A stretch of DNA of 64,000 nt, from positions 272,715 to 336,714 of the forward strand of contig CP055308.1 of the NCBI GenBank assembly GCA_013374855.1. Direction: 5' to 3'. The position numbers and the translations under genes were made by a program. How positions within the stretch are numbered: the stretch's first letter is position 1; each line of letters begins with the position of its first letter. The DNA comes from Candidatus Woesebacteria bacterium. Its GTDB lineage: Bacteria; Patescibacteriota; Microgenomatia; UBA8517. The notes under the pieces were generated by a model. That model had not been told where the DNA came from and made no database searches. It saw nothing but the letters and a program-made list of their open reading frames with translations. Shown here piece after piece: positions 22,571 through 39,917 of this stretch.

Positions 22571-23401
22571 TTGAAAAAATTATTACCAGAAGAAAAAGCT
22601 TCGATTTTCTATCACAGTTTCTTTGATTATCCTCTAACGGAGGAAGATCTTTTAAAGTGGGCTGTTGGAAGAAAATTTTTATCGCTTTTTCCAAAAAAGA
22701 TAAATGTTATTCAGAAAGATGGTTTTTATTTTCTTCCAGAAGAAAAGTCCAGTATTTCTTGGCGGCAAAAAAGAGAAAAGTTTTCTGAAAGAAAGATCAA
22801 GATAGCAAAAAAGGCAGCTTCTTTGATTTCTCTTTTACCTACCGTCAAACTTGTTGCCATAACAGGATCGCTTGCGATGAGAAATGCAGATATTGATTCG
22901 GATATTGACTTGATGATTGTAACAAAGAGTGGTTTTCTTTGGACAACAAGGATATTTGTTTATCTTTTCCTTTTTGCCTTTGGTTTTCCTTTCAGAAGGT
23001 TTGGCAGTAGAGAAGTAAAAGATAAACTCTGTCTTAATATTTGGCTTGATGAGGGGAAACTTGTTTGGCATAAAAAAAATATTTTTACTGCGCATGAAGT
23101 TTTGCAAATCGTGCCGCTTTTAAACAGAAACTTTACCTACGAGCAGTTTTTGTCTGCTAATTTGTGGGCTTTTGATTATTGGCCAAATGCGGCAGACAAA
23201 AGAAAGTTGAAATGGACGGCTTTTTTAAAATTGAAAATTGACTTTTTTTCTTATATCTGGGCGCCGTTTGAGCTTTTGGCTTTTCTTTTGCAGAGACTTT
23301 ATATGCTGGGCAAGATTGGAAGAGAGACGGTTTCTTTGGATAGGGCAATATTTCACCCCATTGATCTTTCGGATAGAATTTTGCAAAAGCTACATACATA
23401 G
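22571..23401 (+). CDS. Minimal nucleotidyltransferase (Pol-beta superfamily) domain protein
   Basis: ITGSLAMRNADIDSDIDLMIV matches the GS-x9-13-DxD nucleotidyltransferase signature. Confidence 0.5.
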   Translation: MKKLLPEEKASIFYHSFFDYPLTEEDLLKWAVGRKFLSLFPKKINVIQKDGFYFLPEEKSSISWRQKREKFSERKIKIAKKAASLISLLPTVKLVAITGSLAMRNADIDSDIDLMIVTKSGFLWTTRIFVYLFLFAFGFPFRRFGSREVKDKLCLNIWLDEGKLVWHKKNIFTAHEVLQIVPLLNRNFTYEQFLSANLWAFDYWPNAADKRKLKWTAFLKLKIDFFSYIWAPFELLAFLLQRLYMLGKIGRETVSLDRAIFHPIDLSDRILQKLHT

Positions 23402-23412
23402 GAGCGGGAGAG

Positions 23413-23456
23413 TGGAAGAGTAGAAGTTGAAGATTTGATTTATGATTTATGAATTA
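23413..23456. repeat. Direct repeat copy A (about 44 bp), paired with 25118-25161. It contains internal tandem TGATTTATGA units.
   Basis: TGGAAGAGTAGAAGTTGAAGATTTGATTTATGATTTATGAATTA is identical at 23413-23456 and 25118-25161. A short GAGTGG is shared upstream of each copy. Confidence 0.7.
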
Positions 23457-23462
23457 TGATTC

Positions 23463-24158
23463 ATGATTTATGAACTTATAAGAATCAAGAACGAGCTGGG
23501 TATGAAAACCGATTCGTTAGAGTCTTATCCTGCCTGTTTTTTCGATACCCAAGAAACTAGAGATTTTACTGGTAGTCGAATGTGCAATGCAGGGAAGACG
23601 GCATGTACCATTGGATTTGATGGTAGTATAAGGCCTTGCTCTCATGCTATTCAGACCTATGGATCTATGTTAGATGCTGGCGGGCTATATGAAGCGTGGA
23701 TAAACATGCAGCCTTGGAGAACAGAGGAATATATTCCAGAAAGTTGTAATCAATGTCCTGAAAAAAACTTGTGTAGAGGAGGATGTAGAACAGAAGCTTT
23801 TGCTGTATATGGGAGTCTCAAAGCTCCAGACCCTTACTGTAATTTGTCAAACACCGTCATACCTAGATCCTCTACTAATAGAGAGAGGGTTGATTTTTCA
23901 GCAGAATATTACTTTCACCCAGCCACTAAATACAGAGAGGAAAATTTTGGTGGGATTCTTTTTGTGACTCCCGTAAGATGGGTTGGAGTAACACATCAGC
24001 TGTATAATTTTTTTACAGAAAACAAAGTGAACAGATTTAGACTTAGTGCTTTGGCAAAATCTCTAGGACTAGAGGATAATAATCAAATTGAGACAACAGC
24101 CGAAATGTTAATTCGAAAGACTATATTACAGAAAGGGGGTGATAAGAATGACAAGTGA
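23463..24158 (+). pseudogene. Orphan SPASM/twitch-domain fragment, the C-terminal part of a radical SAM peptide maturase with the radical SAM core missing
   Basis: CNAGKTACTIGFDGSIRPC matches the start of SPASM domains (C-x-AG ... DG-x-V-x-PC). Downstream CNQCPEKNLCRGGCR gives the auxiliary cluster cysteines. No CxxxCxxC is present. An in-frame TGA lies 6 nt upstream of the ATG inside the direct repeat. Confidence 0.55.
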
Positions 24159-24330
24159 AAGAGAAACTAATCCAACCCCTGGAATAGTTGAAATGGTAGT
24201 TGAGGAAAGTGACAAGATTGATGAAAATCAACAACAGAGCTGTTATGAGTCTTGTGATGCAAGTGGTTGTGATTGTTTTGACTCAGGTGATTGTTTTGAT
24301 TACTGTGACAGGGTGCCGGACCCAGATTAA
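24148..24330 (+). CDS. Acidic six-cysteine small peptide, 60 aa from the ATG at 24148 or 63 aa from a GTG at 24139. It looks like a RiPP precursor.
   Basis: The sequence is MTSERETNPTPGIVEMVVEESDKIDENQQQSCYESCDASGCDCFDSGDCFDYCDRVPDPD. It has an acidic leader-like N-terminus. The C-terminal core pattern is C-x3-C-x4-C-x-C-x5-C-x4-C. A GGGGG lies 8 nt upstream of the ATG. It overlaps the 3' end of the SPASM fragment. Confidence 0.45.
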   Translation: MTSERETNPTPGIVEMVVEESDKIDENQQQSCYESCDASGCDCFDSGDCFDYCDRVPDPD

Positions 24331-24378
24331 AAACTTAAACTTTTAAAATAGTGTTAAATAAAAGTAAAAGACAGATCT

Positions 24379-25041
24379 ATGAAAATAATAGTAGATTATT
24401 CTTTGGATCTTGATACTTGGAATTACCTACGTTCTGTTTATAGGTTTGTGTGGTATATTCATGGCAGAAGCAACCTTCAAAAAAAGCTTCTTTCGGCTCT
24501 TCCAGAAGATCTGGTTGCTGACCTAAAAAGTACAAAAGATGAGAAACAAGCAAGGAAGACTATTAAAAAATTTCTGCTTAAAAATATAGAAGTTAGGAAG
24601 AAAAAATACTTCCTTATTGCTCAAAATATAGAATCTGCATGGGAAAAAGAGAGTTTTGAAATAGAGACTAAGCTGGAAAAATTGTACGAAAACAAGATTC
24701 CATTTAGGTCAATAAAAATCTTTCTTTCTACTTTACCCATCTGTCCTTACAACTTTGAGAAAAAATGGATAATGGTATTTGGCGAGACCAATACCAAAAA
24801 ACAGCTTCAAATTATAACTCACGAACTTAACCATTTTATGTTCTACTACTATTTTGGAGAAATAAAGAATGAATTGGGGAAAGAAAAATTTGAATCATTA
24901 AAAGAAGCTCTAACAGTGTTTACCAACCCGGAAGAGAAGGGATATCCTAATCAAAAGAGAATAAGAGATTGGCTGTCAAAACAAAAGCGAAGGTCAATCC
25001 CAGAAATAATCAAAAGCGGTAGGTGGAAAGAATATCTTTAA
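24379..25041 (+). CDS. Hypothetical protein with an HExxH motif (putative zincin-like metallopeptidase)
   Basis: QIITHELNHFMFYYYFGEIKNE has HELNH plus a downstream Glu. There is no signal peptide. It is the last gene inside the repeat-bounded cassette. Confidence 0.4.
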   Translation: MKIIVDYSLDLDTWNYLRSVYRFVWYIHGRSNLQKKLLSALPEDLVADLKSTKDEKQARKTIKKFLLKNIEVRKKKYFLIAQNIESAWEKESFEIETKLEKLYENKIPFRSIKIFLSTLPICPYNFEKKWIMVFGETNTKKQLQIITHELNHFMFYYYFGEIKNELGKEKFESLKEALTVFTNPEEKGYPNQKRIRDWLSKQKRRSIPEIIKSGRWKEYL

Positions 25042-25117
25042 TTCCGACAACCAAAATATCAATTTTAAAGTCTAATGATCTATTAGCTTACGAAAATAAT
25101 AAATAAGAGTGGGGGAT

Positions 25118-25161
25118 TGGAAGAGTAGAAGTTGAAGATTTGATTTATGATTTATGAATTA
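25118..25161. repeat. Direct repeat copy B, paired with 23413-23456
   Basis: Identical 44-mer. It is followed by another GATTTATGAATTTATTC unit. Confidence 0.7.
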
Positions 25162-25276
25162 GGATTTATGAATTTATTCTAGAATCTTAATTCACTTTGT
25201 TCTTTGTTCTACTATTGTCAATGGTTAATGGTTAATGGTCAAATGTCATGCTGAATTCATTTTTCGCATCTCTTAC

Positions 25277-25390
25277 CTTAATTATAAACAAATTACAAAT
25301 TCCAAATCACAAGCTCCAAACAAATTCCAATTAACAAATTACAAACAATACACAAATTCCAAATTACAAAACATCCTCCTTCGCCAAGGC
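25277..25390. repeat. Degenerate tandem A/C-rich repeats with the unit ACAAATTCCAAAT(T/C)ACAA inside a 650-bp non-coding region
   Basis: ACAAATTCCAAAT-like units recur 3 or more times with CAAATTACAA variants. Flanking microsatellites are ATGGTTA x2.5 at about 25230, ATTCACT x3 at about 25518, CTTTGTT x3-4 at 25582-25610 and CAGTTGG/GTTGGATGTTGG repeats at 25630-25690. Confidence 0.5.
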
Positions 25391-25465
25391 TACGGAAGGG
25401 CAAGCAAAAATGGTAATTAACTTTTAACAAGGATAGGAGAAACAATATTAAACAAGTCTCCTAAT

Positions 25466-25497
25466 AAGGTCTGGCCTTTAAGTAAAGGCCAGACCTT
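25466..25497. repeat. 32-nt near-perfect palindrome (15-bp stem, 2-nt loop)
   Basis: AAGGTCTGGCCTTTA-AG-TAAAGGCCAGACCTT. There is no T-tract on either side, so it is not a classic intrinsic terminator. Confidence 0.6.
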
Positions 25498-25705
25498 TAT
25501 AAAATCAAATTCCAAATCACTATTCACTATTCACTGTTTACAAATTTGCTTTCTACCTGATGCTAGATGCTTGCTACCATTCTTTTCTTTGTTCTTTGTT
25601 CTTTGTTCTATCTTTGTTGTTGGTTGGATGTTGGAAGTTGTTTGTTCGCTTTAGCGTTGTTGTCAGTTGGCAGTTGGATGTTGGCAGTTCCGTAAGGAGT
25701 GCCTC

Positions 25706-25807
25706 TTGACAAGTTTTATTTGTTTTTTATAATAGCACTTGGGGTTTAGCAATGCTAAAAGCAAAGTGCTAAATGCCTCTTGACAAAACAAAATTCTTTT
25801 TTAAAAT
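25706..25807 (+). promoter_or_regulatory. Two sigma70-like promoters upstream of groES, each embedded in a repeated GCCTCTTGACAA sequence
   Basis: P1 is TTGACA 25706-25711, 16 nt, then TATAAT 25728-25733. P2 is TTGACA 25780-25785, 16 nt, then TAAAAT 25802-25807. Confidence 0.45.
25732..25772 (+). promoter_or_regulatory. CIRCE-like (HrcA operator) inverted repeats, two overlapping copies with 9-nt spacers
   Basis: TTAGCAATG-N9-AAGTGCTAA at 25746-25772 against consensus TTAGCACTC-N9-GAGTGCTAA. An overlapping ATAGCACTT-N9-CAATGCTAA lies at 25732-25758. Both sit between P1 and P2 of groES. Confidence 0.55.
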
Positions 25808-25819
25808 TTTTTCTAGTCT

Positions 25820-26122
25820 ATGGGAAGCAAAAAATTAAATTTAAAACCAACACCAGGCTATCTTTTAATAGAACCTGCTTTGGCTGAAAAAAAGACTGAG
25901 TCTGGTATTTACCTTCCTGATACTTCAGAGGAAAAACCCCAAAAAGGTAAAGTTTTAGCAGTAGGGGCAGATGAGGTTCTTGATTCTGGAAAGACGAGAA
26001 AATCTCCAGCTAAAGTTGGTGATGAAATAATTTACAAAAAATGGGGTGGTAATGAAGTTAAGATTGATGGCAAGGAATATATCTTTGTTAAGTTTGAGGA
26101 TGTTTTGGCAGTAATTGGCTAA
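25820..26122 (+). CDS. groES: Co-chaperonin GroES
   Basis: 100 aa with [13 protein letters not shown] ... KGKVLAVG ... [11 protein letters not shown], the canonical Hsp10. Confidence 0.95.
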
Positions 26123-29677: not shown

Positions 29678-32600
29678 ATGTTAAATAATTCTGATTTAAC
29701 ATTTATCACAAATGAAAAAGGCCAAAATCTTCTTGAGAGATTTAAGGTGTTGATTAAAGATACCGAATTTTTTGATGTTTTGGTTGGTTATTTCTACACA
29801 AGTGGTTTTTACGCGTTGTATAAATCTTTAGAAAAGGCAAAAAGGATTAGGATCCTAATTGGTATTGGTACTGGCAAAAGAACTGTAGAATTGATAGATA
29901 AGGCTAAACAATCAGAATTGCAATTTTCTCACGCGGAGACAAAAGAACATTTTTCAAATTTGCTTGTTAATGAGATGGAGAATTCACAGGATAGCAAGTC
30001 GGTGGAGGAAGGAGTAATGAAATTTTTGGAATGGTTGCAAAACGGGAAATTAGAAATAAAAGCTTACCCAACAGAAAATATCCATGCTAAGTTATACATT
30101 ATGTCCTTTGCTGAAGGGGACCGCGATGTAGGGCGAATTATTACTGGTTCAAGCAATTTTACGCAAGCTGGTTTGGTGGATAATTTTGAATTTAATGTAG
30201 AATTAAAAAATCGTGCTGATTATGAATTTGCCAAAGCTAAATTTGAGGAACTCTGGAAACATGCTGTAGATGTAAAGGATAAATATATACAAACGATCAA
30301 AGAAAGAACTTGGTTAAATAATACTATTACTCCTTATGAACTTTATCTTAAATTTCTATATGAGTATTTTAAAGATGAACTTCTTCAAACAGATGAAGTC
30401 ATCTTCAAATACGTTCCGTCAGAATTTAAACGATTAGAATATCAAGAGCAAGCAGTATTAAACGCAAAAAAAATTCTTGAAGAATACGGTGGTGTTTTTA
30501 TTTCTGATGTTGTTGGGCTTGGTAAAACTTATATTTCTGCCATGCTTGCTAATCAACTTGATGGCAGAAGTTTAGTCATAGCGCCACCAGTGCTTTTAGA
30601 AAAAGATAATCCTGGTTCCTGGCCAAATGTATTTTCTGATTTTAGAGTACCGGCAGATTTTGAATCTCTTGGCAAATTGGATTATCTCATTCGGCGCGGC
30701 ACCGAAAAATATAGGAACATTTTCATTGACGAGGCACATCGTTTCAGAACGGAGTCAAACATAACTTTCGAAAAACTAGCTCAAATTTGTCGAGGTAAAA
30801 GAATCATTCTTGTCACAGCTACCCCTTATAACAATTCTCCAAAAGATATTCTAAGTCAAATCAAACTTTTTCAAAAAACTAAGAAAAGTACAATTCCTAA
30901 TTTACCAAATTTGGAGATCTTTTTTTCCAAACTTGAAAAACGCCTCAAAAATTTGGATAGATATAAAAACAGTGCTAAATACATTGAAATCTCTAAAGAA
31001 AATGCAAAAGAAATTAGGGAGAAGGTTCTTAAATATATTATGGTAAGAAGAACTAGGACAGAGATTGAAAAATACTTCAGTGATGATTTGAAAAAACAAA
31101 ACCTAAAGTTTCCTAGAGTAGAAGACCCGGAGCCGGTTTTTTATGAGTTAGATGACGAAGAAGATAAAATATTTAATCAAACGATTGAGCTCATTACCAA
31201 AAAATTTAAGTACGCTCGCTATATGCCTTTACTTTACTATAAGGGAAAACTTACTCAACCAGAAGAACTATCTCAAAGGAATATGGGAAGATTTATGAAA
31301 ATTCTTCTGGTTAAGCGGCTGGAGAGCAGTTTTTATGCCTTTAGAAAGAGCATTGAGCGATTTATTATTTATTACGAGAAGTTTTTTAAAGAATTTGAAG
31401 AAGGTAATGTCTATGTGAGTAAAAAATATACCTACAAAATCTTTGAACTACTTGAAAATGACGATGAAGAAAAGATTCAACGCTTAATAGAAGAAGATAA
31501 AGCTAGGAAATACTCGGCTAAAGATTTTAGAAAAGAACTTAAGTTAGATTTAAAACAGGATCTGGAAACTTTAAAAGATATCCAAAAACTTTGGCAAAAT
31601 ATTAAACGTGATCCAAAACTGCTCAAATTTATTGAAATGCTTTCTTCTCATCCAATTTTAAAGAAACAGAAATTAATTATTTTTACTGAATCGAAAGAAA
31701 CTTGCGATTATCTTTATAAAAATTTAGAGAAAAAACTTCCTGATCAAGTTTTATCCTATTCAGGTACTTCAAGCACTGTTATTAGAGAGAAAGTTATTGA
31801 AAATTTTGATGCTCGAGCTCACTTTCCTAAAGATGATTACCGGATATTGATAAGTACAGAGGTTCTATCGGAAGGTGTTAACCTTCATCGTTCCAATGTG
31901 GTGATTAACTATGATATTCCATGGAACCCAACTCGATTAATGCAAAGAGTAGGTCGCATTAACCGAGTTGATACTTCTTTTGATAAAATTTATGCTTTTA
32001 ATTTTTTTCCCACCAAACAATCTAACAGTTTAATAAAACTAAAAGAAGCCGCTGAGGCAAAAATTCATACCTTTATGACTTTACTTGGCGATGATGCTAG
32101 AATTCTTACTGAAGGGGAGCCTATTGGTTCACATGAATTATTTAATCGTTTGGTTTCCAAAAAAACGATCACAGGCGAAGATGAAAAAGAGGAAAGTGAA
32201 CTTAAATATTTACGAATTATTAAAAATATCCGTGACAATAATCCTGATCTATTTTCCAAAGTTAAGCAATTACCTAAGAAAGCAAGAACTGCTAGAAAAA
32301 ATAATCAGAAATCTAATTCACTTATCACCTATTTTCGAAAAGGCAAGCTTCAAAAATTCTTTATTGTCAGTAAAAGAGAACCTCAGGAAATAGATTTTAT
32401 TTCAACAGCCAAGTTACTAGAAGCACATTCAGATACGAAGCGCGAAAAACTTGGTCAAGATTTTTATGAATTGCTTGAAAAAAACAAAAAAGCATTTGAA
32501 TTGGTGACTATTGAAGACATCCCGGAATTAAAAATGAGAGGTGGTAGAGATGCGGCAACTCAGATGTTAAAAATATTAAAAGCGTTAAAAGATTTGCGAA

Positions 32601-32860
32601 AGTTTACTGAAGATCAAGAAATTTATTTAAGAAAAGTAATAAGAGAAGTTGAAGAAGGTGGTTTGCCTAAACAAACAACTAAAAATACTCTCAAAGAATT
32701 ACAAAAAGAATTAAAGAATGGTTTAAATCCTCTAAAAATTTTAGGAGTGCTTCAAAAAAATATCCCAAGCGATTTATTAAAAGAACATATTGTTGAAAGT
32801 GCCGCTCAAACTTCCGGACCAAGAGAGGTGATTTTATCAGAATATCTAGTTAGCGCATAG
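29678..32860 (+). CDS. PLD-family (HKD) nuclease domain fused to an SNF2/SWI2-family DEAH helicase
   Basis: N-terminal HKD motif NIHAKLYIM...GSSNFTQAGL. Helicase motif I is DVVGLGKTYISA, motif II is DEAHRFR, motif III is VTATPYNN, and C-terminal motifs IV-VI include NPTRLMQRVGRINR. Confidence 0.8.
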   Translation: MLNNSDLTFITNEKGQNLLERFKVLIKDTEFFDVLVGYFYTSGFYALYKSLEKAKRIRILIGIGTGKRTVELIDKAKQSELQFSHAETKEHFSNLLVNEMENSQDSKSVEEGVMKFLEWLQNGKLEIKAYPTENIHAKLYIMSFAEGDRDVGRIITGSSNFTQAGLVDNFEFNVELKNRADYEFAKAKFEELWKHAVDVKDKYIQTIKERTWLNNTITPYELYLKFLYEYFKDELLQTDEVIFKYVPSEFKRLEYQEQAVLNAKKILEEYGGVFISDVVGLGKTYISAMLANQLDGRSLVIAPPVLLEKDNPGSWPNVFSDFRVPADFESLGKLDYLIRRGTEKYRNIFIDEAHRFRTESNITFEKLAQICRGKRIILVTATPYNNSPKDILSQIKLFQKTKKSTIPNLPNLEIFFSKLEKRLKNLDRYKNSAKYIEISKENAKEIREKVLKYIMVRRTRTEIEKYFSDDLKKQNLKFPRVEDPEPVFYELDDEEDKIFNQTIELITKKFKYARYMPLLYYKGKLTQPEELSQRNMGRFMKILLVKRLESSFYAFRKSIERFIIYYEKFFKEFEEGNVYVSKKYTYKIFELLENDDEEKIQRLIEEDKARKYSAKDFRKELKLDLKQDLETLKDIQKLWQNIKRDPKLLKFIEMLSSHPILKKQKLIIFTESKETCDYLYKNLEKKLPDQVLSYSGTSSTVIREKVIENFDARAHFPKDDYRILISTEVLSEGVNLHRSNVVINYDIPWNPTRLMQRVGRINRVDTSFDKIYAFNFFPTKQSNSLIKLKEAAEAKIHTFMTLLGDDARILTEGEPIGSHELFNRLVSKKTITGEDEKEESELKYLRIIKNIRDNNPDLFSKVKQLPKKARTARKNNQKSNSLITYFRKGKLQKFFIVSKREPQEIDFISTAKLLEAHSDTKREKLGQDFYELLEKNKKAFELVTIEDIPELKMRGGRDAATQMLKILKALKDLRKFTEDQEIYLRKVIREVEEGGLPKQTTKNTLKELQKELKNGLNPLKILGVLQKNIPSDLLKEHIVESAAQTSGPREVILSEYLVSA

Positions 32861-32863
32861 ATT

Positions 32864-35800
32864 ATGGATGAAGATGCAGCAAAAAATTTAATACGAGAAG
32901 TTTTGGAGAGTTCTTTTAATAAAGAAAAATTTATTTATTTGATAAAAAATATTTTTAACCATATTGAAAATGCCCCTTTCGTTTATAAAGGTAATCTTAT
33001 TTTTGATGACTTTGCAGATTCAATTAAGACTTTAGAACGTATAGGAAAATATAAAGACCCTGAAGATAAACTTATAGATATTCTTATTGTTCATCTTAAA
33101 AAGGAAACTACCCTTGAGCGAGCTAGAACAAAACAAAGAAATTTTATTGCTAAATATCTTAAAGGCAGCCGAGGTGATATTTTGAAAGATGCGGCGTTGG
33201 TGGCTTTTGTATCTCCAAATAATGAAGACTGGCGTTTTTCTCTTGTTAAAATGGAGTATAAGTTTAATGATAAAGGAAAGGTTAAAGAAGAATTCACACC
33301 TGCCCGCCGATATTCTTTTCTCGTTGGTAAGAATGAAAACAGCCATACAGCTCAAAGTCGCCTCTTGCCGCTCCTTTTAAATGATAAAAATAATCCCACG
33401 CTGAAAGAATTAGAGGAGTCATTCAGCGTTGAGCGCGTAACCAAGGAATTTTTTGAAAAGTATCGTGACCTATTTTTGCGAATAAAGGAATCACTTGATG
33501 CTATAGTTAAAAAAGATGCTAAAGTCCGAGCCGATTTCAAGGAAAAAAACATTAATACAGTTGATTTTACCAAAAAACTTTTAGGCCAGATTGTCTTTTT
33601 ATATTTCTTACAGAAAAAAGGTTGGTTTGGAGTTGAAAAAGACAAAGATTGGGGAACTGGCGCAAAAAACTTTTTAAGGTCACTTTTTACAAAGAAAATT
33701 GTTGATTATAAAAATTTCTTTAATGATATTTTAGAACCTCTTTTTTACGAAGCTTTAAGATACGATCGTTCTTATGATAATCATTATTTCAGCTATTTTA
33801 AATGTAAAATTCCATTCCTGAATGGCGGTTTATTTGATCCTATTAATGATTATGATTGGTCAAAAACAGAAATACTCCTGCCAAATGAGCTTTTTTCAAA
33901 CAACCAAAAAACAAAAGAGGGTGACGCCGGCGATGGTATTTTAGATGTTTTTGACCGTTACAATTTTACAGTAAAAGAAGATGAGCCGCTGGAAAAAGAA
34001 GTTGCTATAGACCCGGAAATGCTTGGGAAAGTTTTTGAAAACCTATTGGAAGTAAAAGATAGAAAATCAAAAGGTACATACTACACCCCGCGTGAAATTG
34101 TCCACTATATGTGTCAGGAAAGTTTAATAAATTATCTTTATACCTCTGTGAATGAGGAATTAATGAAAAAAGCAGTTAGACCACAGAAACAGTTAAAACT
34201 TGTTGGCAACGAAGAACCCGAACAACTCAGTCTTCGTACAAAAGAAGAATTGATAAGCAAAGAGGATTTAGAAATATTTATAAAACACGGAGAATTAATA
34301 GCAGAAAATGAAAAAGTAACGATGGTCAGGAAGGAGCATATCAAAGAAGGTAAACTTAAAAGATCGAGTTATAAATTCAAACTTTCCGGGAGTATAAGAG
34401 AAAATGCAAAACTTATAGACGATAAACTAAGAGAAATTAAAGTTTGTGATCCAACCGTCGGCTCTGGTGCCTTTCTGGTGGGAATGATGAATGAGATTGT
34501 TAAAGCAAGACAGGTATTAGAAACTTATATTCAAGCAGGCAAAACCACCTATGATTTTAAGCGTGAATGTATCGAAAAATCTCTTTATGGTGTGGACATT
34601 GATCCAGGTGCGGTAGAAATCGCCAAGCTTCGTCTCTGGCTTTCACTCATTGTGGACGAAGAGAATATTGAAAACATTAAACCCTTGCCAAATTTGGACT
34701 TTAAAATTATGCAAGGTAATAGCTTGCTATCGGAGTTTATGGGAATTGATTTTGACAAAGAATCTGATAATAAAAATGGACAACTACTTATTTCCCACAA
34801 TGACACAAATGTATTGATTGAGGAATTAAAGAGAAAAAAGAAAGAGTATCTTAATAAAGCAAGTGCAGGAGGAAAAAAGGATCTAAAACAGGAGATAGAA
34901 GATTTGATAATTAAAATCTTTGAGGGAAAACTAAAAAGACAAAAGAATGATTACTTTAGCCAAATAAAAACTATTGAAGAAAAATATAAGGTTTTGCTTA
35001 ATATAGAACAGAGAGAAAGTATTATCAAGGAAGAAAAGGAGAAATTGTATAAGGCATCAGGTTTTAATTTAGAGCAATTTGAAAAACAGCTAAGAGAATA
35101 TACTACCGGCAATAAAATCCGCCCATTTTTCCCTTGGAAACTCTATTTTGCTGAAGTCTTTCATGAAAAAGGTGGATTTGATGTGGTAATTGCCAATCCA
35201 CCGTATGTGAGCGTAAAAGAAATAATCCCCCAAGATAAAAAAACTTTTGGTCAGTTGTTTGAGACAGGCAAGGGGCGATTTAATTTATTTACTTTATTTT
35301 TAGAAAAAGGACATAAACTTCTAAGGCCTGACGGGGTGCTAACTTATATTCTCCCAGAAAGTTTATACTTCAATTTTGAATATCGCTTTATTAGAGAATA
35401 TTTGCTAAATCATTCTTCAATTTTATTCGTCAATCTTTTTTCGAGCAGGGTATTTGAAGCCGCCGTTGATACATCCGTCATCAGCTTTGCTAATAAACAA
35501 AAAAGTAACAATTCGTTTCCAGTAATTAGAGACTTAAAAAATTCTAGTTTTAAGTTATCGCAGGAAGAACTTAACCAACTTCCCTTTAAGATTTTCCCTG
35601 TAAACTTAACTCAAAAGTCCAAGCCAATTATTGATAAGTTAATCAGTAATAACTTTGACACCCTCGAAAAAATTCTAGAAATTCAGCAAGGCATTATTTA
35701 TTCCGGCCTTCCCAAAGACAAAGTCTTTTCAAATACCCAAGTCAACAAAACCTACAAGAAGATCTTGGACGGACGGGATGTCTTAAAGTGGAGAATTAAT

Positions 35801-36319
35801 TGGGAAGAAAAACAAGAAAACAGATACATACATTATTCTGATAGGTTACACCGTCCTAGGGAGGAAAGAATTTTTTTAGCGAAAGAAAAGATACTACTTC
35901 CCAGAAAGGCTACCCGAATTTTGGCTGCTTATGATAATAAGCAATATTATGCGCTTAATACAGCTTATTTATGTCTTCCTAAAAGCAAGAAGTACAACCT
36001 TAAATATGTATTGGCTTGTTTGAATTCCAAGCTAATCAATTACTTTTATTCGTCACTCTTTTTTGGGTGGCAAATAACTATTCCAGCACTCAATCTTATG
36101 CCAATCCCCGTACAAAATACCTCGGGTCAAAAACCCTTCATTGATCTCGTTGACAAAATCCTCGCTGTTACCAAAGACGACGACTATTTAGAAAACCCCG
36201 CCAAGCAAGCCAAAGTCCGCGAGTACGAAAAACAAATCGACCAACTTGTTTATAAGCTTTATGGTTTGACAGAAGAAGAGATTAAAATTATTGAAAATGA
36301 AGAAAAAAAGAAGAAATAA
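32864..36319 (+). CDS. Large gamma-class N6-adenine DNA methyltransferase (Eco57I / PglX / Type IIG-like), 1151 aa with a C-terminal TRD-like region
   Basis: Motif X is GTYYTPREIVHYM. Motif I is CDPTVGSGAFLVGM. A K/E-rich coiled-coil insertion follows, then motif IV VVIANPPYVS. Motif I before motif IV gives the gamma order. There is a 3-nt gap after the helicase gene. Confidence 0.8.
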   Translation: MDEDAAKNLIREVLESSFNKEKFIYLIKNIFNHIENAPFVYKGNLIFDDFADSIKTLERIGKYKDPEDKLIDILIVHLKKETTLERARTKQRNFIAKYLKGSRGDILKDAALVAFVSPNNEDWRFSLVKMEYKFNDKGKVKEEFTPARRYSFLVGKNENSHTAQSRLLPLLLNDKNNPTLKELEESFSVERVTKEFFEKYRDLFLRIKESLDAIVKKDAKVRADFKEKNINTVDFTKKLLGQIVFLYFLQKKGWFGVEKDKDWGTGAKNFLRSLFTKKIVDYKNFFNDILEPLFYEALRYDRSYDNHYFSYFKCKIPFLNGGLFDPINDYDWSKTEILLPNELFSNNQKTKEGDAGDGILDVFDRYNFTVKEDEPLEKEVAIDPEMLGKVFENLLEVKDRKSKGTYYTPREIVHYMCQESLINYLYTSVNEELMKKAVRPQKQLKLVGNEEPEQLSLRTKEELISKEDLEIFIKHGELIAENEKVTMVRKEHIKEGKLKRSSYKFKLSGSIRENAKLIDDKLREIKVCDPTVGSGAFLVGMMNEIVKARQVLETYIQAGKTTYDFKRECIEKSLYGVDIDPGAVEIAKLRLWLSLIVDEENIENIKPLPNLDFKIMQGNSLLSEFMGIDFDKESDNKNGQLLISHNDTNVLIEELKRKKKEYLNKASAGGKKDLKQEIEDLIIKIFEGKLKRQKNDYFSQIKTIEEKYKVLLNIEQRESIIKEEKEKLYKASGFNLEQFEKQLREYTTGNKIRPFFPWKLYFAEVFHEKGGFDVVIANPPYVSVKEIIPQDKKTFGQLFETGKGRFNLFTLFLEKGHKLLRPDGVLTYILPESLYFNFEYRFIREYLLNHSSILFVNLFSSRVFEAAVDTSVISFANKQKSNNSFPVIRDLKNSSFKLSQEELNQLPFKIFPVNLTQKSKPIIDKLISNNFDTLEKILEIQQGIIYSGLPKDKVFSNTQVNKTYKKILDGRDVLKWRINWEEKQENRYIHYSDRLHRPREERIFLAKEKILLPRKATRILAAYDNKQYYALNTAYLCLPKSKKYNLKYVLACLNSKLINYFYSSLFFGWQITIPALNLMPIPVQNTSGQKPFIDLVDKILAVTKDDDYLENPAKQAKVREYEKQIDQLVYKLYGLTEEEIKIIENEEKKKK

Positions 36320-39300
36320 AAAACGGAAAGAGTTAAAACAATTAGGAAAACTTGTCTCTTATGGCGATTTTGTATTACCTCCAGTTATACCTGGCCCTAA
36401 AGTAAAAGACCTGTGTAAGAAGATTGATAATTTTTATAAAGGTTATCCAAGGCAACATCGAAAACAAAAAGCATCTGATTTAATCCATGGGGCATTCTAT
36501 GCAGTTAGGCCAGAATGTAAATCTAATGATGACTGGATGAGCCAATCAGCAAATTCGCTACGAGACGTTCTTTATCCATTTTTTAGTGAGGAAGTTAGTA
36601 AAAATAATTTACTAAAATTGTTCAGAAAATATGCAACAGATAAACAATATCGTAAAAAAACTCAGAATTTAAAATTTATTACGACATTTAATGCTCTTTA
36701 TAAAATTTATAAACAGTTGACTGATTTGGCTCATCATGGAACCAAACTAAGTGGATTTACGGAGGAAGAATATAATAATTTTTCAAGAAACGATTTTATG
36801 AATCTTATAAATAGTTTTGTTTCTATTTTAAGAGAAGTTCTTACTTTGCAGCAAATCTATATTCATACTGTCATAGATCTAATTGTGCAAAGAAAGAGAA
36901 AAACAAAAGCCCTTAAAGAAGATTTAGAATTGCTCTCAAAAGTAAATCCTGATGCTTGCCAATACTTTTTTATCAAAGTTGACGAGCAATGGTTAGGCTG
37001 GCTGTGGAAGAATGATTTTCTGGATGTTATAAAGCAAAAAGCAGAAGATCCGACTCGTTATAGTTATCTTACTCCAGAGCTTAATTATCTTGTTCGAATG
37101 GCAGAAAAAGTTCCTGCAAAAGTTGTTAATATTATGCTTGAGGTAGAAATATCAAAAGAAAATTTTAACCCCGAAGTTGTTGATAGATTTATACAAATTT
37201 GTAGTATTCTGCCGGCTGAGCAGCTTAAAAAGATTGTTCCTAAAATTCGTGACGAGAAATGGGTTTCTTTAATGAAAGGGTTTAATCAATGGGGTTTTGA
37301 ATATGAAAAGATGTTTCAAAAATTAGCAGAGGCGAAAGATTATGAGAGTATTATCGCTTTGGCAGAAGCAATCCTTTCGGTGAAAACAAAAGAAGAGATA
37401 GAAGGATATCAAATTGTTTTTGGTGACGAGCTATTTTACTTTGATGATTTGTTTTATACAAAAGTATTTGAATATTTAGTTGCCGTAAATGATAAATATG
37501 CTGAAAAAGCATTCGGATTAGCAATAAAAGTGATGGGTAAATTAATTGGGTTATTAAATAAAGATTCTGAAGAAGAAAGAGTATTTAAATTTTATGACAG
37601 ATATATACTTTCAGATGCAGACTTCTTTAATTTAGGGATTGAACAAAGAAGTCGTTTCTCAAGAGAAGGAAATATTGAAGGGCTTGTTATAGCAATTATT
37701 GAACTTGCTAAGAGATTGATTGTTGGAAAATGTGCGCAAGAAAGAGAAGAAGTTCGTCGAATTTTTAATCAATATATTGGCGACTTTGATGATATTAATG
37801 CGCCCTTACCAGATAGTCAGGCAATGTGGCGATTGCGTCTATTTTTTTTGAGCTTGTGTCCTCAGGTTTTCAAGGAAGAATTGAAAAAATCATTTTTCCG
37901 GTTATTTGAGGTTGAAAGCTATTATGAGATTATTCAAGGTGTGGAGTATTTAGAGGCATTGCGCTCTGGTTTTTATGTTTTATCTGATCATAATAAGCGC
38001 GGTTATGTAAACCGGGTTATAGAATATTTTGTAAAAAAAGAGAAAGAAGAAGAAAAAAGTGGACATTTAGATTTTGGTTCAAAGATTCTTTCTATGATTG
38101 CAAATCATTTGACAGAAGAAGAAAAGAAAAAAGCAGAAAAAATAGGATTTGTGATTAACCAAGATATTAAACCAGAGCCTGAAGTAAAGATAGGTGGGGT
38201 TGGACATATTTTTTCTCAACCACCGTTGTCTTATGAAAGTTTCCAAAAAATAGAAGTTCCTATAATTGCTGAAAAACTGCGTTCAGAATGGTCGCCCAAA
38301 GAGATCGCTGAAAAATATAAAGAAAGGTCAGACTTTTTCAATCGCATAAACGCAGAAGGCGTTGGAGAATACCTTCAAAAAAATATATCAGAGAGACTGC
38401 AGGATTATGTTGATAATGCTTTTAGGTTTTTTGATAGGGAAAATTTGGACTCTCATTACACTTATTCTTATCTTCGTGGGATTCAGGAAACAATTAAAGA
38501 TAATCGTGAACTTGCTGCAAAAGTAGATTGGAGTGGTATTATTAATCTCTTTAAATTAATTAAAGAGTCTGGAGAAAAAAATCAATTTGAGGAAAGAAAA
38601 AGAGAAAGAGAATTTTCTAATTTTTGGTTAGCTAGTTGGAAAACAGTGCATTCTGCAATGGCGGATGTTTTAAAAGAACTGCTTTCTTCAAAAAATGACA
38701 CAGAGGTAATTAATTTTGAAAAATACCGCAATGACATTGTTTCTATTCTCAAATATCTCTTTTTATATCCTGATCCTCGTCTTGAAGATGAAAAATTAGA
38801 AACTACTGACTTAAAAACAAAATCTTCAAATGATAAAGATTATATGGTTAGCGATCCTTTTAGTATTGCTATTAATTCGGTGAGAGGAAGAGTTTTTGAA
38901 GCCTTTTTATTATTTGTTTATCAAGACAGTAAGAGGTTTAAAGAAAAAGATAAGGTAAAGATAGCCGACGATGTAAAGTCTCTTTATGAAAATGTTTTAG
39001 AAAAAGAAAACACTCGTGCCATTATGTTTTTATTTGGTTATCATCTCCCCTCTTTTTATTATCGTGATAAACTATGGATAAAAAGACTTCTGAAGGTGAT
39101 TCTCCCCGGAGAAAAGTCAAAAAAGCATCTTTATACTGCAGCTTGGGAAGGTTATTTGTCTCAAAATCTTTATAAAGAAATTTTTTTTGATTCTGATTTT
39201 CAAAAACTATATGGGCGTGGAGTTGACTTAACTGACGACGATTTTCCACCTTATCAGAAACATTTTAAAGATCCTGAAAATGCTATTGGTATTCATCTTG

Positions 39301-39917
39301 CTCTTGCTTTTATATATTTTCCGGAATTTGGTTTTGAACATAATTTATTTAAAAAATTTTGGAAAACAAAAAGACCCAAAAGCCATAAAGAATTTATATC
39401 CTTTATTGGTAATAGTTGTCTGTCAAACGAGGTGGCTGGAGATGAATGGTTTGAAAAAAATAAAATAGATAAAGGAAAGCTTATTGAATTATGGAATTGG
39501 GCATTAAAGAATGTTTCAGATCCAAAAATTTTATCTGGTTTTGGCTCTTGGATTAATCCTAATAGAGAAATTTTAGATGATAATTTTGTAGTTGAAAAAA
39601 TAGCTTTAACAATACAAAAAACTGGCGGATACATCGATTGGGATTATGGTCTTTTTATGAGGTTGCCTTTTTTTGCAGAAAAGAATAAAGGAAAAACGTT
39701 AGAAATTATTTCGAATTATTTTCTTAATTCAAAAGGTAAACTTAATCAAAACTTTCGAAAGTTTCAATTATATGAGGAAGAGATAAAAAGGGCTATGATA
39801 ATTATTTATAAAAACGGAGATGAAAAAATAAGAGAAAAAGTAAAAATCTTAATAGACACACTTATAAGAGAGGGAAGTAATATATTTTGGGGGTTAAAGG
39901 AAGTTATAGGAGATTAA
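36291..39917 (+). CDS. 1208-aa hypothetical protein, predicted all-alpha and repeat-like, with no recognisable enzymatic motifs
   Basis: It is a long uninterrupted ORF in an AT-rich genome where long ORFs are unlikely by chance. Its start overlaps the methyltransferase 3' end by about 25 nt, which suggests translational coupling. The N-terminus is basic (KKKRRNKKRKE). No Walker A, HKD, PD-(D/E)xK, HNH or HEPN motif was seen by eye. Confidence 0.55.
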   Translation: MKMKKKRRNKKRKELKQLGKLVSYGDFVLPPVIPGPKVKDLCKKIDNFYKGYPRQHRKQKASDLIHGAFYAVRPECKSNDDWMSQSANSLRDVLYPFFSEEVSKNNLLKLFRKYATDKQYRKKTQNLKFITTFNALYKIYKQLTDLAHHGTKLSGFTEEEYNNFSRNDFMNLINSFVSILREVLTLQQIYIHTVIDLIVQRKRKTKALKEDLELLSKVNPDACQYFFIKVDEQWLGWLWKNDFLDVIKQKAEDPTRYSYLTPELNYLVRMAEKVPAKVVNIMLEVEISKENFNPEVVDRFIQICSILPAEQLKKIVPKIRDEKWVSLMKGFNQWGFEYEKMFQKLAEAKDYESIIALAEAILSVKTKEEIEGYQIVFGDELFYFDDLFYTKVFEYLVAVNDKYAEKAFGLAIKVMGKLIGLLNKDSEEERVFKFYDRYILSDADFFNLGIEQRSRFSREGNIEGLVIAIIELAKRLIVGKCAQEREEVRRIFNQYIGDFDDINAPLPDSQAMWRLRLFFLSLCPQVFKEELKKSFFRLFEVESYYEIIQGVEYLEALRSGFYVLSDHNKRGYVNRVIEYFVKKEKEEEKSGHLDFGSKILSMIANHLTEEEKKKAEKIGFVINQDIKPEPEVKIGGVGHIFSQPPLSYESFQKIEVPIIAEKLRSEWSPKEIAEKYKERSDFFNRINAEGVGEYLQKNISERLQDYVDNAFRFFDRENLDSHYTYSYLRGIQETIKDNRELAAKVDWSGIINLFKLIKESGEKNQFEERKREREFSNFWLASWKTVHSAMADVLKELLSSKNDTEVINFEKYRNDIVSILKYLFLYPDPRLEDEKLETTDLKTKSSNDKDYMVSDPFSIAINSVRGRVFEAFLLFVYQDSKRFKEKDKVKIADDVKSLYENVLEKENTRAIMFLFGYHLPSFYYRDKLWIKRLLKVILPGEKSKKHLYTAAWEGYLSQNLYKEIFFDSDFQKLYGRGVDLTDDDFPPYQKHFKDPENAIGIHLALAFIYFPEFGFEHNLFKKFWKTKRPKSHKEFISFIGNSCLSNEVAGDEWFEKNKIDKGKLIELWNWALKNVSDPKILSGFGSWINPNREILDDNFVVEKIALTIQKTGGYIDWDYGLFMRLPFFAEKNKGKTLEIISNYFLNSKGKLNQNFRKFQLYEEEIKRAMIIIYKNGDEKIREKVKILIDTLIREGSNIFWGLKEVIGD

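What the first reader, a model, noticed from the sequence alone, without database searches (positions are those of the whole stretch)
24148..24330. Acidic six-cysteine 60-aa peptide that looks like a RiPP precursor
The sequence is MTSERETNPTPGIVEMVVEESDKIDENQQQS-CYESCDASGCDCFDSGDCFDYCDRVPDPD. It has a leader-like acidic N-terminus and a C-terminal core with 6 Cys in 22 residues, most of them followed by Asp or Glu. This arrangement is typical of thioether (sacti- or ranthipeptide) or metal-binding peptides. It lies directly after a SPASM domain and before an HExxH protein. Its partner maturase looks truncated, so it may be silent. Alternatively a trans-acting rSAM elsewhere may modify it.
Basis: seen in the sequence. 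Interest (0 to 1): 0.6.

Follow-up and report, generated by a model that had tools for sequence, protein, structure and literature searches.

The report
Orphaned precursor peptide of CPR RiPP cassette
The 60-residue cysteine/aspartate-rich ORF is a real precursor-peptide gene from a widespread, apparently undescribed three-gene peptide-modification cassette of ultra-small (CPR/Patescibacteria) bacteria, but here the modifying enzyme has lost its catalytic half, so this copy is probably a decaying remnant.

Summary
ORF 24148-24330 encodes the stated 60-aa peptide, between a SPASM-domain ORF and an HExxH ORF.

It is a real gene. Homologues have a nearly invariant core (CYESCDASGCDCFDSGDCFDxCD), and codon differences from one homologue are mostly synonymous (12 versus 2).

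In other Patescibacteria the peptide sits 3' of an intact 435-470-aa radical SAM/SPASM enzyme. I found 39 distinct peptides at that position. They share a leader motif xG[ILV][ILV]x[LMIV] and a core of 23% Asp and 20% Cys, with 56% of Cys followed by Asp.

The enzyme ends in a confidently modelled domain whose fold matches are nearly all RiPP recognition elements. A 210-240-aa HExxH zincin follows in 35 of 37 loci. It is one of two types, never both.

No curated family covers enzyme, peptide or type-1 HExxH protein, and I found no paper on them.

In this window only codons ~230-465 of the enzyme remain (SPASM plus recognition domain). The CX3CX2C half is absent from all 64 kb. A 76-nt direct repeat brackets the 1.7-kb unit.

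Related genomes show further decay. The likely chemistry, Cys-Asp thioether cross-links as made by PapB, is inferred only.

A maturase elsewhere in the ~0.8-Mb genome could not be excluded.

The parts
23394..23469 (.). Direct repeat copy R1. It starts 8 nt before the end of the upstream nucleotidyltransferase gene. It ends in a GATTTAT-type heptamer tract that merges into the remnant of the maturase gene.
   Evidence: 76 nt, 89% identical to 25099-25174, with a 43-nt exact core at 23414-23456 (0 matches in 100 shuffles). A gapped alignment extends it to 23346-23478 versus 25060-25189, score 137 against a shuffle maximum of 66.
23449..24158 (+). Remnant of the radical SAM/SPASM maturase gene, codons ~230-465 only. 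There is an in-frame TGA at 23457-23459, and the open ORF runs 23463-24158 (231 aa). The radical SAM core with CX3CX2C is missing.
   Evidence: tblastn with the intact maturases of L003 and L001 gives 57% and 55% identity over residues 231-464 and 239-469, E 1e-93, and nothing else in the window. The DNA alignment starts at 23449, gene codon 230. Alignment A3 shows the window row covering only the C-terminal half.
23583..23840 (+). SPASM auxiliary Fe-S domain of the remnant (residues 41-126). The full seven-Cys pattern is present: C41-X12-G-X4-C59, C95-X2-C98-X5-C104-X3-C108, and C125.
   Evidence: TIGR04085 E 1.4e-11, 44.6 bits against cutoff 27. The Cys positions were read from the translation. 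All are invariant columns in A3 and A4.
23880..24137 (+). C-terminal RiPP-recognition-element (PqqD-like) domain of the remnant, residues ~140-225.
   Evidence: AlphaFold2 pLDDT is 93-97 for this part, with four strands followed by three helices. The leading Foldseek PDB hits are mostly RRE-containing proteins: PqqD 5sxy (prob 0.97, TMt 0.57), PbtF RRE 8t19, MccB, TigE, TbiB1, SuiB and LynD/TruD. Individual E-values are weak (0.08 or higher).
24134..24139 (+). Shine-Dalgarno-like AGGGGG, 8 nt upstream of the peptide ATG.
   Evidence: Read directly from the sequence.
24148..24240 (+). Leader region of the precursor (residues 1-31). It includes the family-wide motif PGIVEM at 24178-24195.
   Evidence: The motif xG[ILV][ILV]x[LMIV] is present in 38 of 39 distinct family peptides; one has only GVV. 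P11, G12 and V14 are invariant in the close subfamily.
24241..24330 (+). Core and tail of the precursor (residues 32-60 plus stop): CYESCDASGCDCFDSGDCFDYCD followed by RVPDPD.
   Evidence: The core is nearly invariant in P0002-P0005 and P0201-P0211. Codon differences from L001 are 12 synonymous and 2 non-synonymous. The tail C[DE]R[AV]PDP is shared with L001, L050, L051, L054, L058 and L060.
24379..25041 (+). Type-1 HExxH protein (220 aa), a small zincin-fold metalloprotein. HELNH lies at 24820-24834 and an invariant Glu176 follows 24 residues later.
25099..25174 (.). Direct repeat copy R2, 58 nt after the HExxH stop. It contains a second, more degenerate copy of maturase codons ~230-241.
   Evidence: R2 positions 25136-25166 align to L003 maturase nt 692-726 with a 4-nt gap.

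Best explanation
The ORF is the precursor-peptide gene of a three-gene cassette found across Patescibacteria (CPR).

How intact copies most likely work:
1. A radical SAM/SPASM enzyme recognises the short hydrophobic leader motif (PGIV-x-M/L) through its C-terminal recognition-element domain.
2. Using the SAM-derived radical and its two auxiliary Fe-S clusters, it cross-links the Cys- and Asp-rich core. The most likely product is several Cys-S-to-Asp carbon thioethers, as made by ranthipeptide maturases such as PapB.
3. The adjacent small HExxH zincin then trims the peptide (leader removal), or degrades it as protection.

In this genome a rearrangement at a repeat junction removed codons 1-229 of the maturase, including the SAM-binding CX3CX2C cluster. 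The peptide can therefore no longer be modified by its own neighbour, and the locus is an early-stage remnant. The peptide, the SPASM-plus-recognition fragment and the HExxH gene are still intact. Related genomes show later stages of the same decay.

What is shown: family membership, gene order, the truncation, the recognition-domain fold and the zincin fold.
What is inferred: the thioether chemistry, the role of the HExxH protein, and loss of function here.
For: Family and gene order:
- Peptide homologues lie between an intact maturase and the HExxH gene.
- 39 distinct peptides share the leader motif and a core of 23% Asp and 20% Cys. 133 of 238 Cys are followed by Asp.
- The core is under purifying selection.

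Maturase:
- Homologues carry CX3CX2C and PF04055.
- The SPASM seven-Cys motif is intact in the window.
- The closest solved relatives are peptide-modifying SPASM/twitch enzymes: PqqE, SkfB, SuiB, TigE, anSME and CteB.
- The C-terminal domain has a recognition-element fold.

Chemistry precedent:
- PapB makes Cys-Xn-Asp/Glu thioethers for n = 0-6 (PMC9413430).

HExxH partner:
- Of 37 non-redundant loci with at least 900 nt downstream of the maturase, 23 have type 1, 12 have type 2 (Peptidase_MA_2, PF13485), none have both and 2 have neither.
- Type 1 has a zincin fold and an HExxH plus Glu signature.

Truncation:
- No N-terminal half anywhere in the window. The junction is at codon 230, inside the repeat. 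An independent assembly is identical.

Decay series in relatives:
- L008 (Ca. Woesebacteria Ch104b; HExxH 68% identical) has no maturase and a frameshifted, leaderless peptide remnant.
- L029 has an 81-aa SPASM stub and no peptide.
- L030 has an IS3-type transposase where the maturase should be.
- None of the 120 best maturase-family proteins in the 5.8-billion-protein database lies on an 802,554-nt contig, the length of the source contig.
Against: - No chemistry was or could be tested. The maturase scores far below the cutoff of every curated family, including PapB (66 bits against 340). Its best partial matches are cofactor-type enzymes (MftC, AhbD, NirJ2, PqqE).
- The 231-codon remnant has no frameshift or internal stop and keeps every invariant residue. 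The peptide keeps its ribosome-binding site and the conserved 11-nt overlap. The fragment could therefore still be under selection, or the truncation may be very recent.
- Only 64 kb of a ~0.8-Mb genome was visible. One search lists only the 120 best hits (517 bits or more), so a separately encoded N-terminal half, or a more distant maturase, would have been missed.
- Type-1 HExxH genes occur alone in about two thirds of the genomes that have them, mostly without any peptide remnant. Their function is therefore not strictly tied to the cassette.
- No exporter is conserved in the neighbourhood, which is unusual for a secreted antimicrobial peptide.
Confidence: 0.7

Rival explanations
1. The locus is still functional. 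The peptide is modified in trans by a radical SAM enzyme encoded elsewhere in the genome. Alternatively the maturase is split: an N-terminal radical SAM half encoded elsewhere pairs with the retained SPASM-plus-recognition fragment.
For: The remnant ORF is open for 231 codons with all invariant residues and the complete SPASM Cys motif. The recognition domain is retained. The peptide core is identical to consensus and has a good ribosome-binding site. Only 8% of the genome was visible.
Against: The remnant has no Shine-Dalgarno sequence before its first ATG and has an in-frame TGA two codons upstream. No family member on the source contig appears among the 120 best hits. No CX3CX2C ORF exists in the 64 kb. 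Relatives show the same cassette decaying further. Among the loci examined no split version of this family was seen; every maturase gene that reaches its 3' end is a single ORF of 434-487 aa wherever the contig also includes its 5' end.
Confidence: 0.15
2. The family product is not a cross-linked antimicrobial-type peptide. It is an intracellular cofactor or metal-handling peptide, like mycofactocin, PQQ or a Cys/Asp metal chelator. The unmodified peptide in this genome may still bind metals on its own.
For: The best partial NCBIfam matches of the maturase are MftC, AhbD, NirJ2 and PqqE, and PqqE is the closest solved structure. No exporter is conserved next to the cassette. The core is about 43% Cys plus Asp, with no basic residues in most members. 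That composition suits metal binding.
Against: Distribution is patchy, cores are hypervariable in length and repeat number, IS elements are associated and loss is frequent. This fits an accessory or conflict function better than a cofactor. The mycofactocin and PQQ signature residues are absent from the peptides. All scores are far below the family cutoffs.
Confidence: 0.12
3. The HExxH partner is not a peptidase but an alpha-ketoglutarate/Fe-dependent HExxH hydroxylase that beta-hydroxylates the many Asp residues of the core, as ChlH does in triceptide pathways.
Against: Neither HExxH type matches TIGR04267/IPR026337. Type 1 has an invariant Glu 24 residues after HExxH, the gluzincin third-ligand spacing. 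In other loci its place is taken by a bona fide Peptidase_MA_2 protein. The reaction needs O2, whereas the partner radical SAM enzyme is oxygen-sensitive and CPR bacteria are mostly anaerobic fermenters (general knowledge).
Confidence: 0.1
4. The ORF is a chance open frame or an assembly artefact.
For: It is only 60 codons long and no curated peptide family matches it.
Against: Homologues are conserved with synonymous-dominated divergence. Synteny is conserved. An independent assembly is identical.
Confidence: 0.01

Closest known systems
Ranthipeptides made by PapB-type radical SAM/SPASM maturases (freyrasin, PapA/PapB)
   Same: A radical SAM/SPASM enzyme sits next to a short precursor whose core is a run of Cys and Asp. 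PapB links Cys sulfur to Asp/Glu side-chain carbons in Cys-Xn-Asp motifs with n = 0-6 (PMC9413430). In this family's peptides, 144 of 238 core Cys are immediately followed by Asp or Glu, and spacings up to n = 6 are also common (47-77 each).
   Different: The maturase scores 65-66 bits against the PapB family cutoff of 340. The recognition element is C-terminal, after the SPASM domain. The core is built on CD dipeptide repeats rather than six regular CX3D units. An HExxH zincin is an almost obligatory third gene. The family is confined to Patescibacteria. No product has been characterised.
SCIFF peptides and their maturase (TIGR03973/TIGR03974; CteB)
   Same: Six-Cys short peptides next to a radical SAM/SPASM thioether-forming enzyme. 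CteB (5wgg) is a detectable structural-sequence relative.
   Different: The peptide does not match the SCIFF model, and the maturase remnant scores 15 bits against a cutoff of 425. The leader and core motifs are unrelated.
QhpD/QhpC (quinohemoprotein amine dehydrogenase maturation)
   Same: A radical SAM/SPASM enzyme that makes Cys-to-Asp/Glu thioethers inside a small Cys/Asp-rich polypeptide (own knowledge). There is a weak match to TIGR03906.
   Different: Scores of 50-56 bits against a cutoff of 453. QhpC is an enzyme subunit in a dehydrogenase operon, and nothing of that kind lies nearby here.
Mycofactocin and PQQ systems (MftC/MftB/MftA; PqqE/PqqD/PqqA)
   Same: MftC is among the top-scoring curated families (best for the L003 maturase), and PqqE is the closest solved structure. 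All use a PqqD-like recognition element to bind a short precursor.
   Different: In those systems the recognition element is a separate protein (MftB) or is encoded separately or fused differently (PqqD). Here it is fused C-terminally. The scores are 98-106 bits against 265 (MftC) and 80-88 against 381 (PqqE). The precursors lack the mycofactocin and PQQ signature residues.
Leader peptidases of the zincin/M1 type (for example EryP) and aKG-dependent HExxH hydroxylases (ChlH, PflC)
   Same: The type-1 HExxH protein has a zincin-like fold. Its best matches are M1 catalytic domains, ChlH and EryP. Both enzyme types act on RiPP precursors.
   Different: At 220 aa it is a stand-alone minimal domain. 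It has no sequence match to any Pfam, NCBIfam or PDB entry. It often occurs without the rest of the cassette.

Membership tests
Radical SAM/SPASM RiPP cassette (sacti-/ranthipeptide type), as a functional unit in this window | Maturase with a CX3CX2C radical SAM [4Fe-4S] site | tested here: not met
   Residues 1-229 are absent. There is no tblastn match and no CX3CX2C ORF of 150 aa or more in the 64 kb. The site is present in homologues (CNERCVHC and similar).
Radical SAM/SPASM RiPP cassette (sacti-/ranthipeptide type) | SPASM domain with the seven-Cys auxiliary-cluster motif | tested here: met
   TIGR04085 scores 44.6 bits against a cutoff of 27. CX12GX4C, CX2CX5CX3C and the final C are all present.
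Radical SAM/SPASM RiPP cassette (sacti-/ranthipeptide type) | RiPP recognition element that can bind a leader | tested here: met
   The fold is met: pLDDT about 95 with a strands-then-three-helix topology, and the leading PDB matches are mostly RRE proteins. Binding itself was not testable.
Radical SAM/SPASM RiPP cassette (sacti-/ranthipeptide type) | Short precursor gene adjacent to the maturase, with a conserved leader and a variable Cys-rich core | tested here: met
   39 distinct peptides lie directly 3' of the maturase, with a shared leader motif and hypervariable C/D-rich cores.
Radical SAM/SPASM RiPP cassette (sacti-/ranthipeptide type) | Thioether (Cys-S to carbon) cross-links in the mature product | not testable with these tools
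   Needs co-expression followed by mass spectrometry and NMR.
PapB family ranthipeptide maturase (NF047865) | Score above the curated cutoff (340 bits) | tested here: not met
   66.4 and 64.9 bits for the intact homologues, and 20 bits for the window remnant.
SCIFF system (TIGR03973 peptide, TIGR03974 maturase) | Peptide and maturase match their models | tested here: not met
   The peptide has no NCBIfam hit. The maturase remnant scores 15.3 bits against a cutoff of 425.
Mycofactocin maturase MftC (TIGR03962) | Score above the curated cutoff (265 bits) | tested here: not met
   106.2 and 97.8 bits for the intact homologues.
aKG-dependent HExxH beta-hydroxylase domain (TIGR04267/IPR026337) | Sequence match to the family model | tested here: not met
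Gluzincin metallopeptidases (clan MA) | HExxH helix plus a downstream Glu ligand on a zincin fold | tested here: met

The most novel reading that the evidence does not exclude
The cassette defines an undescribed, Patescibacteria-wide RiPP class: a radical SAM/SPASM enzyme with a C-terminal recognition element, a 'CD-repeat' precursor, and an interchangeable HExxH zincin. Its chemistry or role may differ from known ranthipeptides. For example, it could have a new cross-link pattern on CD dipeptides, or act as a peptide used in the episymbiotic lifestyle. The frequently orphaned HExxH gene may be an immunity or degradation factor kept after the producer genes are lost. In this genome the retained SPASM-plus-recognition fragment could still have a role, such as sequestering the leader.
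Probability: 0.3. Interest if true: 0.7.

Novelty: new variant of a known kind. Interest (0 to 1): 0.5.

Why it matters
CPR/Patescibacteria have tiny genomes and are usually reported to have few or no biosynthetic gene clusters. One survey states that its Patescibacteria genomes contained none (PMC11613949).

Here, at least 120 sequence clusters score above 517 bits to the maturase profile (704 clusters at E below 1e-20, which may include more distant radical SAM/SPASM enzymes). That is a compact three-gene peptide-modification system found in many of these organisms, yet I found no curated model or paper for it.

The cassette is small enough to synthesise and express, so its chemistry is directly testable.

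The decay series (this window, L008, L029, L030) also shows how such cassettes are lost, and that the HExxH gene outlives the rest.

For this particular genome the practical message is more modest: the peptide gene is real, but its maturase is broken.

Tried and rejected
- Pfam, NCBIfam and PADLOC scans of the peptide and the type-1 HExxH protein gave nothing usable.
- An Rfam scan of 23000-26000 found only sub-threshold chance hits.
- The promoter and terminator scan of 23100-25900 found no more sites than shuffles. A TTGGCA-18-GATAAT site at 24051-24080 upstream of the peptide is noted but not significant.
- The 76-nt repeat was searched in the window (only the two copies) and in all 100 fetched loci (absent, apart from a 19-nt match to the maturase gene itself). 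It is therefore not a genome-wide intergenic repeat within the data I had.
- The upstream nucleotidyltransferase gene is not linked to the cassette in any other locus.
- A profile search of PDB sequences with the HExxH family found no significant hit.
- The afdb50 fold library was unavailable.
- Type 1 versus type 2 HExxH by hhalign gave only 35% probability, so homology between them is unproven.
- Eight literature searches on CPR/Patescibacteria with RiPP, radical SAM, SPASM, ranthipeptide or sactipeptide, plus general searches on ranthipeptide and HExxH chemistry, found no description of this family. Subscription journals are not covered.
- I could not retrieve the rest of the source genome. 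The exact-sequence look-up returned only the 1.7-kb contig from the separate public assembly.
Full report
**1. Observation**

It has six Cys between residues 32 and 53. The N-terminal 31 residues are strongly acidic.
- Three of the six Cys are directly followed by Asp. The other three have Asp or Glu at +2.
- A Shine-Dalgarno-like AGGGGG lies 8 nt upstream of the ATG.
- The upstream ORF 23463-24158 (231 aa) matches the SPASM domain model TIGR04085 above its cutoff. It overlaps the peptide start by 11 nt.
- The downstream ORF 24379-25041 (220 aa) carries HELNH.

The window is 34% G+C.

**2. It is a real, conserved gene**

A word-index search found four homologues besides the peptide itself (56-59%, 54% and 51% identity). 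An exhaustive profile search of 1.84 billion representatives found 14 matches, 11 of them short peptides; the ten retrieved show the same architecture.

In this close subfamily the leader motif P-G-[IL]-V and the core CYE[SA]CDASGCDCFDSGDCFDxCD are almost invariant. The window differs from L001 at 12 synonymous but only 2 non-synonymous codons in the 27-codon core. That is the signature of purifying selection on the peptide.

**3. Genomic context in relatives**

In L001, L003 and L004 the peptide sits between an intact 465-469-aa radical SAM/SPASM gene and a 219-220-aa homologue of the window's HExxH gene. L002 is the same except that its HExxH gene appears split into two ORFs. L005 and L006 end just after the peptide. 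The maturase stop and peptide start overlap by the same 11 nt.

A scan of species-representative genomes with the HExxH family returned 37 loci. Most record titles name Patescibacteria lineages: Woesebacteria, Daviesbacteria, WWE3, Uhrbacteria, Saccharibacteria, Nomurabacteria, Paceibacterota and Shapirobacteria. The rest are labelled only 'bacterium', or 'uncultured Gammaproteobacteria' in four third-party-annotated MAGs. A metagenome scan with the maturase family returned 56 more loci.

Directly 3' of the maturase I found 39 distinct short ORFs. Their shared features are:
- a leader motif xG[ILV][ILV]x[LMIV];
- a core composition of 23% Asp, 20% Cys and 13% Gly;
- Asp following 133 of 238 Cys.

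Core length and repeat pattern vary widely. Examples include CDxCD, CDxGCD and CDCDCD runs.

**4. The maturase**

Intact homologues carry CX3CX2C and PF04055, plus a SPASM domain. No curated NCBIfam family is reached:

| Family | Score (bits) | Cutoff (bits) |
|---|---|---|
| MftC | 98-106 | 265 |
| AhbD | 95-114 | 500 |
| PqqE | 80-88 | 381 |
| PapB | 65-66 | 340 |

The closest solved structures by sequence are PqqE, SkfB, MoaA, SuiB, TigE, anSME and CteB. The family is large: 704 database clusters at E below 1e-20, with the best 120 all scoring above 517 bits. Sources name them only 'radical SAM protein' or give similar generic or automatic labels.

After the SPASM domain comes a stretch of about 90 residues. 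AlphaFold2 models it at pLDDT 93-97 as strands followed by three helices. Its leading Foldseek matches in the PDB are mostly RiPP recognition elements: PqqD, the PbtF RRE, MccB, TigE, TbiB1, SuiB and the LynD/TruD heterocyclases. Each single E-value is weak (0.08 or higher), but the enrichment is unmistakable. A recognition element fused C-terminally to the SPASM domain is unusual, from my own knowledge of the field.

**5. The HExxH partner**

The window's 220-aa protein belongs to a family of 75 unnamed clusters. H148, E149, H152 and E176 are invariant, and the model has pLDDT 94.

- Wss1 and thermolysin.

Foldseek adds the lanthipeptide leader peptidase EryP, but all its hits are weak. There is no sequence-level match to Pfam, NCBIfam or the PDB. 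That includes TIGR04267/IPR026337, the model for aKG-HExxH hydroxylases, which are described in PMC12636437.

Loci that lack this type have a different 210-240-aa HExxH protein in the same place. That second type matches Peptidase_MA_2 (PF13485). Of 37 non-redundant loci with enough downstream sequence, 23 have type 1, 12 have type 2, none have both and 2 have neither. This replacement by a non-orthologous zincin argues that a metallopeptidase-type activity is part of the system.

However, type 1 also occurs alone in about two thirds of the genomes that carry it, usually with no trace of a peptide.

**6. State of the cassette in this window**

Homology to the maturase begins at 23449-23451, gene codon ~230. 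An in-frame TGA lies at 23457-23459, and the first ATG corresponds to codon 235. Nothing resembling residues 1-229 exists in the 64 kb, and no ORF of 150 aa or more has CX3CX2C.

What remains is intact over 231 codons: the full seven-Cys SPASM motif and the recognition-element domain. A separate public assembly, built from sequencing run SRR6186653, gives the identical 1.7-kb unit including the junction.

**7. The flanking repeat**

The unit is bracketed by a 76-nt direct repeat, 23394-23469 and 25099-25174. It is 89% identical, with a 43-nt exact core.

Both copies end in a heptamer tract that is itself homologous to maturase codons ~230-241, FMI(Y/N)EL. The downstream copy is therefore a second, degenerate copy of the truncation junction. 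This implies at least two events: a truncation, then a duplication of the junction or of the whole unit followed by partial loss. I could not resolve the mechanism.

**8. Decay in relatives**

- **L008** (Ca. Woesebacteria Ch104b, complete genome; HExxH 68% identical): no maturase. Upstream of its intact HExxH gene lies a leaderless, mutated and frameshifted remnant of the peptide core, WQNCDASDCSRFDSGDCFDICEG / RAPDPD.
- **L029** (WWE3): an 81-aa SPASM stub abuts the HExxH gene.
- **L030**: an IS3-type transposase sits where the maturase should be, next to an intact peptide and HExxH gene.
- **L002-L005**: an rve-type transposase lies directly upstream of the maturase.

The cassette is therefore mobile or unstable and is repeatedly lost, and the HExxH gene survives longest.

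**9. Mechanism**

Shown:
- family membership;
- the gene order maturase, precursor, zincin;
- the recognition-element fold and the zincin fold;
- loss of the radical SAM half in this window.

Inferred:
- the enzyme binds the PGIV-x-L/M leader through its recognition element;
- it cross-links the Cys/Asp-rich core;
- the zincin then processes the peptide.

Cys-to-Asp thioethers are the best-precedented chemistry. PapB accepts Cys-Xn-Asp/Glu with n = 0-6 (PMC9413430), and QhpD makes similar links (own knowledge). The alpha versus beta or gamma position, and even the reaction type, remain open. Without its catalytic half the neighbouring enzyme here cannot act, so this copy is most likely silent or on its way to loss.

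**10. Limits**

Only 64 kb of a roughly 0.8-Mb genome was visible. The sole test for a maturase elsewhere was that none of the 120 best family hits lies on an 802,554-nt contig. That test would miss a stand-alone N-terminal half or a distant paralogue.

The literature search covers open-access papers and preprints only.

**11. Verdict**

The peptide is a genuine member of an apparently uncurated and undescribed Patescibacteria radical SAM/SPASM peptide family. That family is a new variant of a known kind. In this genome, however, the peptide is the orphan of a truncated cassette.

Noticed in passing
window 23394-23469 and 25099-25174: A 76-nt direct repeat (43 nt exact) brackets the 1,705-bp truncated cassette. 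Both copies contain maturase-derived codons ~230-241, so the downstream copy duplicates the truncation junction. The rearrangement history is unresolved.
   Followed up: partly
window 25175-25820: This is a 650-nt non-coding stretch before groES. It contains low-complexity direct repeats (AAACAAATTCCAAAT-like x4, TTGTTCT runs, GTTGGATGTTGG). It has a perfect 12-bp hairpin at 25468-25498. There are two strong TTGACA-16-TATAAT/TAAAAT promoter-like sites at 25706 and 25780, inside a 34-nt direct repeat, with a CIRCE-like TTAGCA...TGCTAA element between them. No Rfam family matched.
   Followed up: partly
window 29678-39917: Three large consecutive genes. The first (1060 aa) is a PLD plus SNF2-helicase fusion. 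The second (1151 aa) is an Eco57I/MmeI-type N6-adenine methylase with a TaqI-like specificity domain. The third (1208 aa) has no Pfam match. Together they look like a DISARM-like or type ISP-like defence island.
   Followed up: partly
L008:5866-5955 (Ca. Woesebacteria Ch104b, CP055307.1): A pseudogene remnant of the same precursor peptide (no leader, Cys-to-other substitutions, frameshift) lies upstream of an intact type-1 HExxH gene. There is no maturase within 6 kb.
   Followed up: yes
L030:5065-5938 and L029:5759-6004: In L030 an IS3-type transposase occupies the maturase position next to an intact Cys/Glu/Asp-rich peptide. In L029 an 81-aa SPASM stub abuts the HExxH gene and there is no peptide. 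Both are independent decay events of the cassette.
   Followed up: yes
L050, L051, L058, L060, L068-L073, L080 (about 190-390 nt after the maturase stop): A second, unrelated-by-BLAST HExxH protein (Peptidase_MA_2, PF13485) takes the place of the type-1 HExxH protein. The two types never co-occur in the 37 loci examined.
   Followed up: yes
L067:1330-1651: Two different precursor genes lie in tandem after one maturase. Both have the leader motif (VGIVNV and PGVVQI) and Cys/Asp-rich cores.
   Followed up: no
L061 and L065 versus L059; protein P0205: These are natural variants that have lost the Cys residues. L061 and L065 carry an internal deletion of the L059 peptide that removes all three Cys. 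P0205 is a leaderless copy of the window-type core with Cys-to-Tyr and Cys-to-Phe changes.
   Followed up: no
L002-L005 (upstream of the maturase): An rve/rve_3 (IS3/IS481-type) transposase gene lies directly upstream of the intact cassette, consistent with mobility of the cassette.
   Followed up: no
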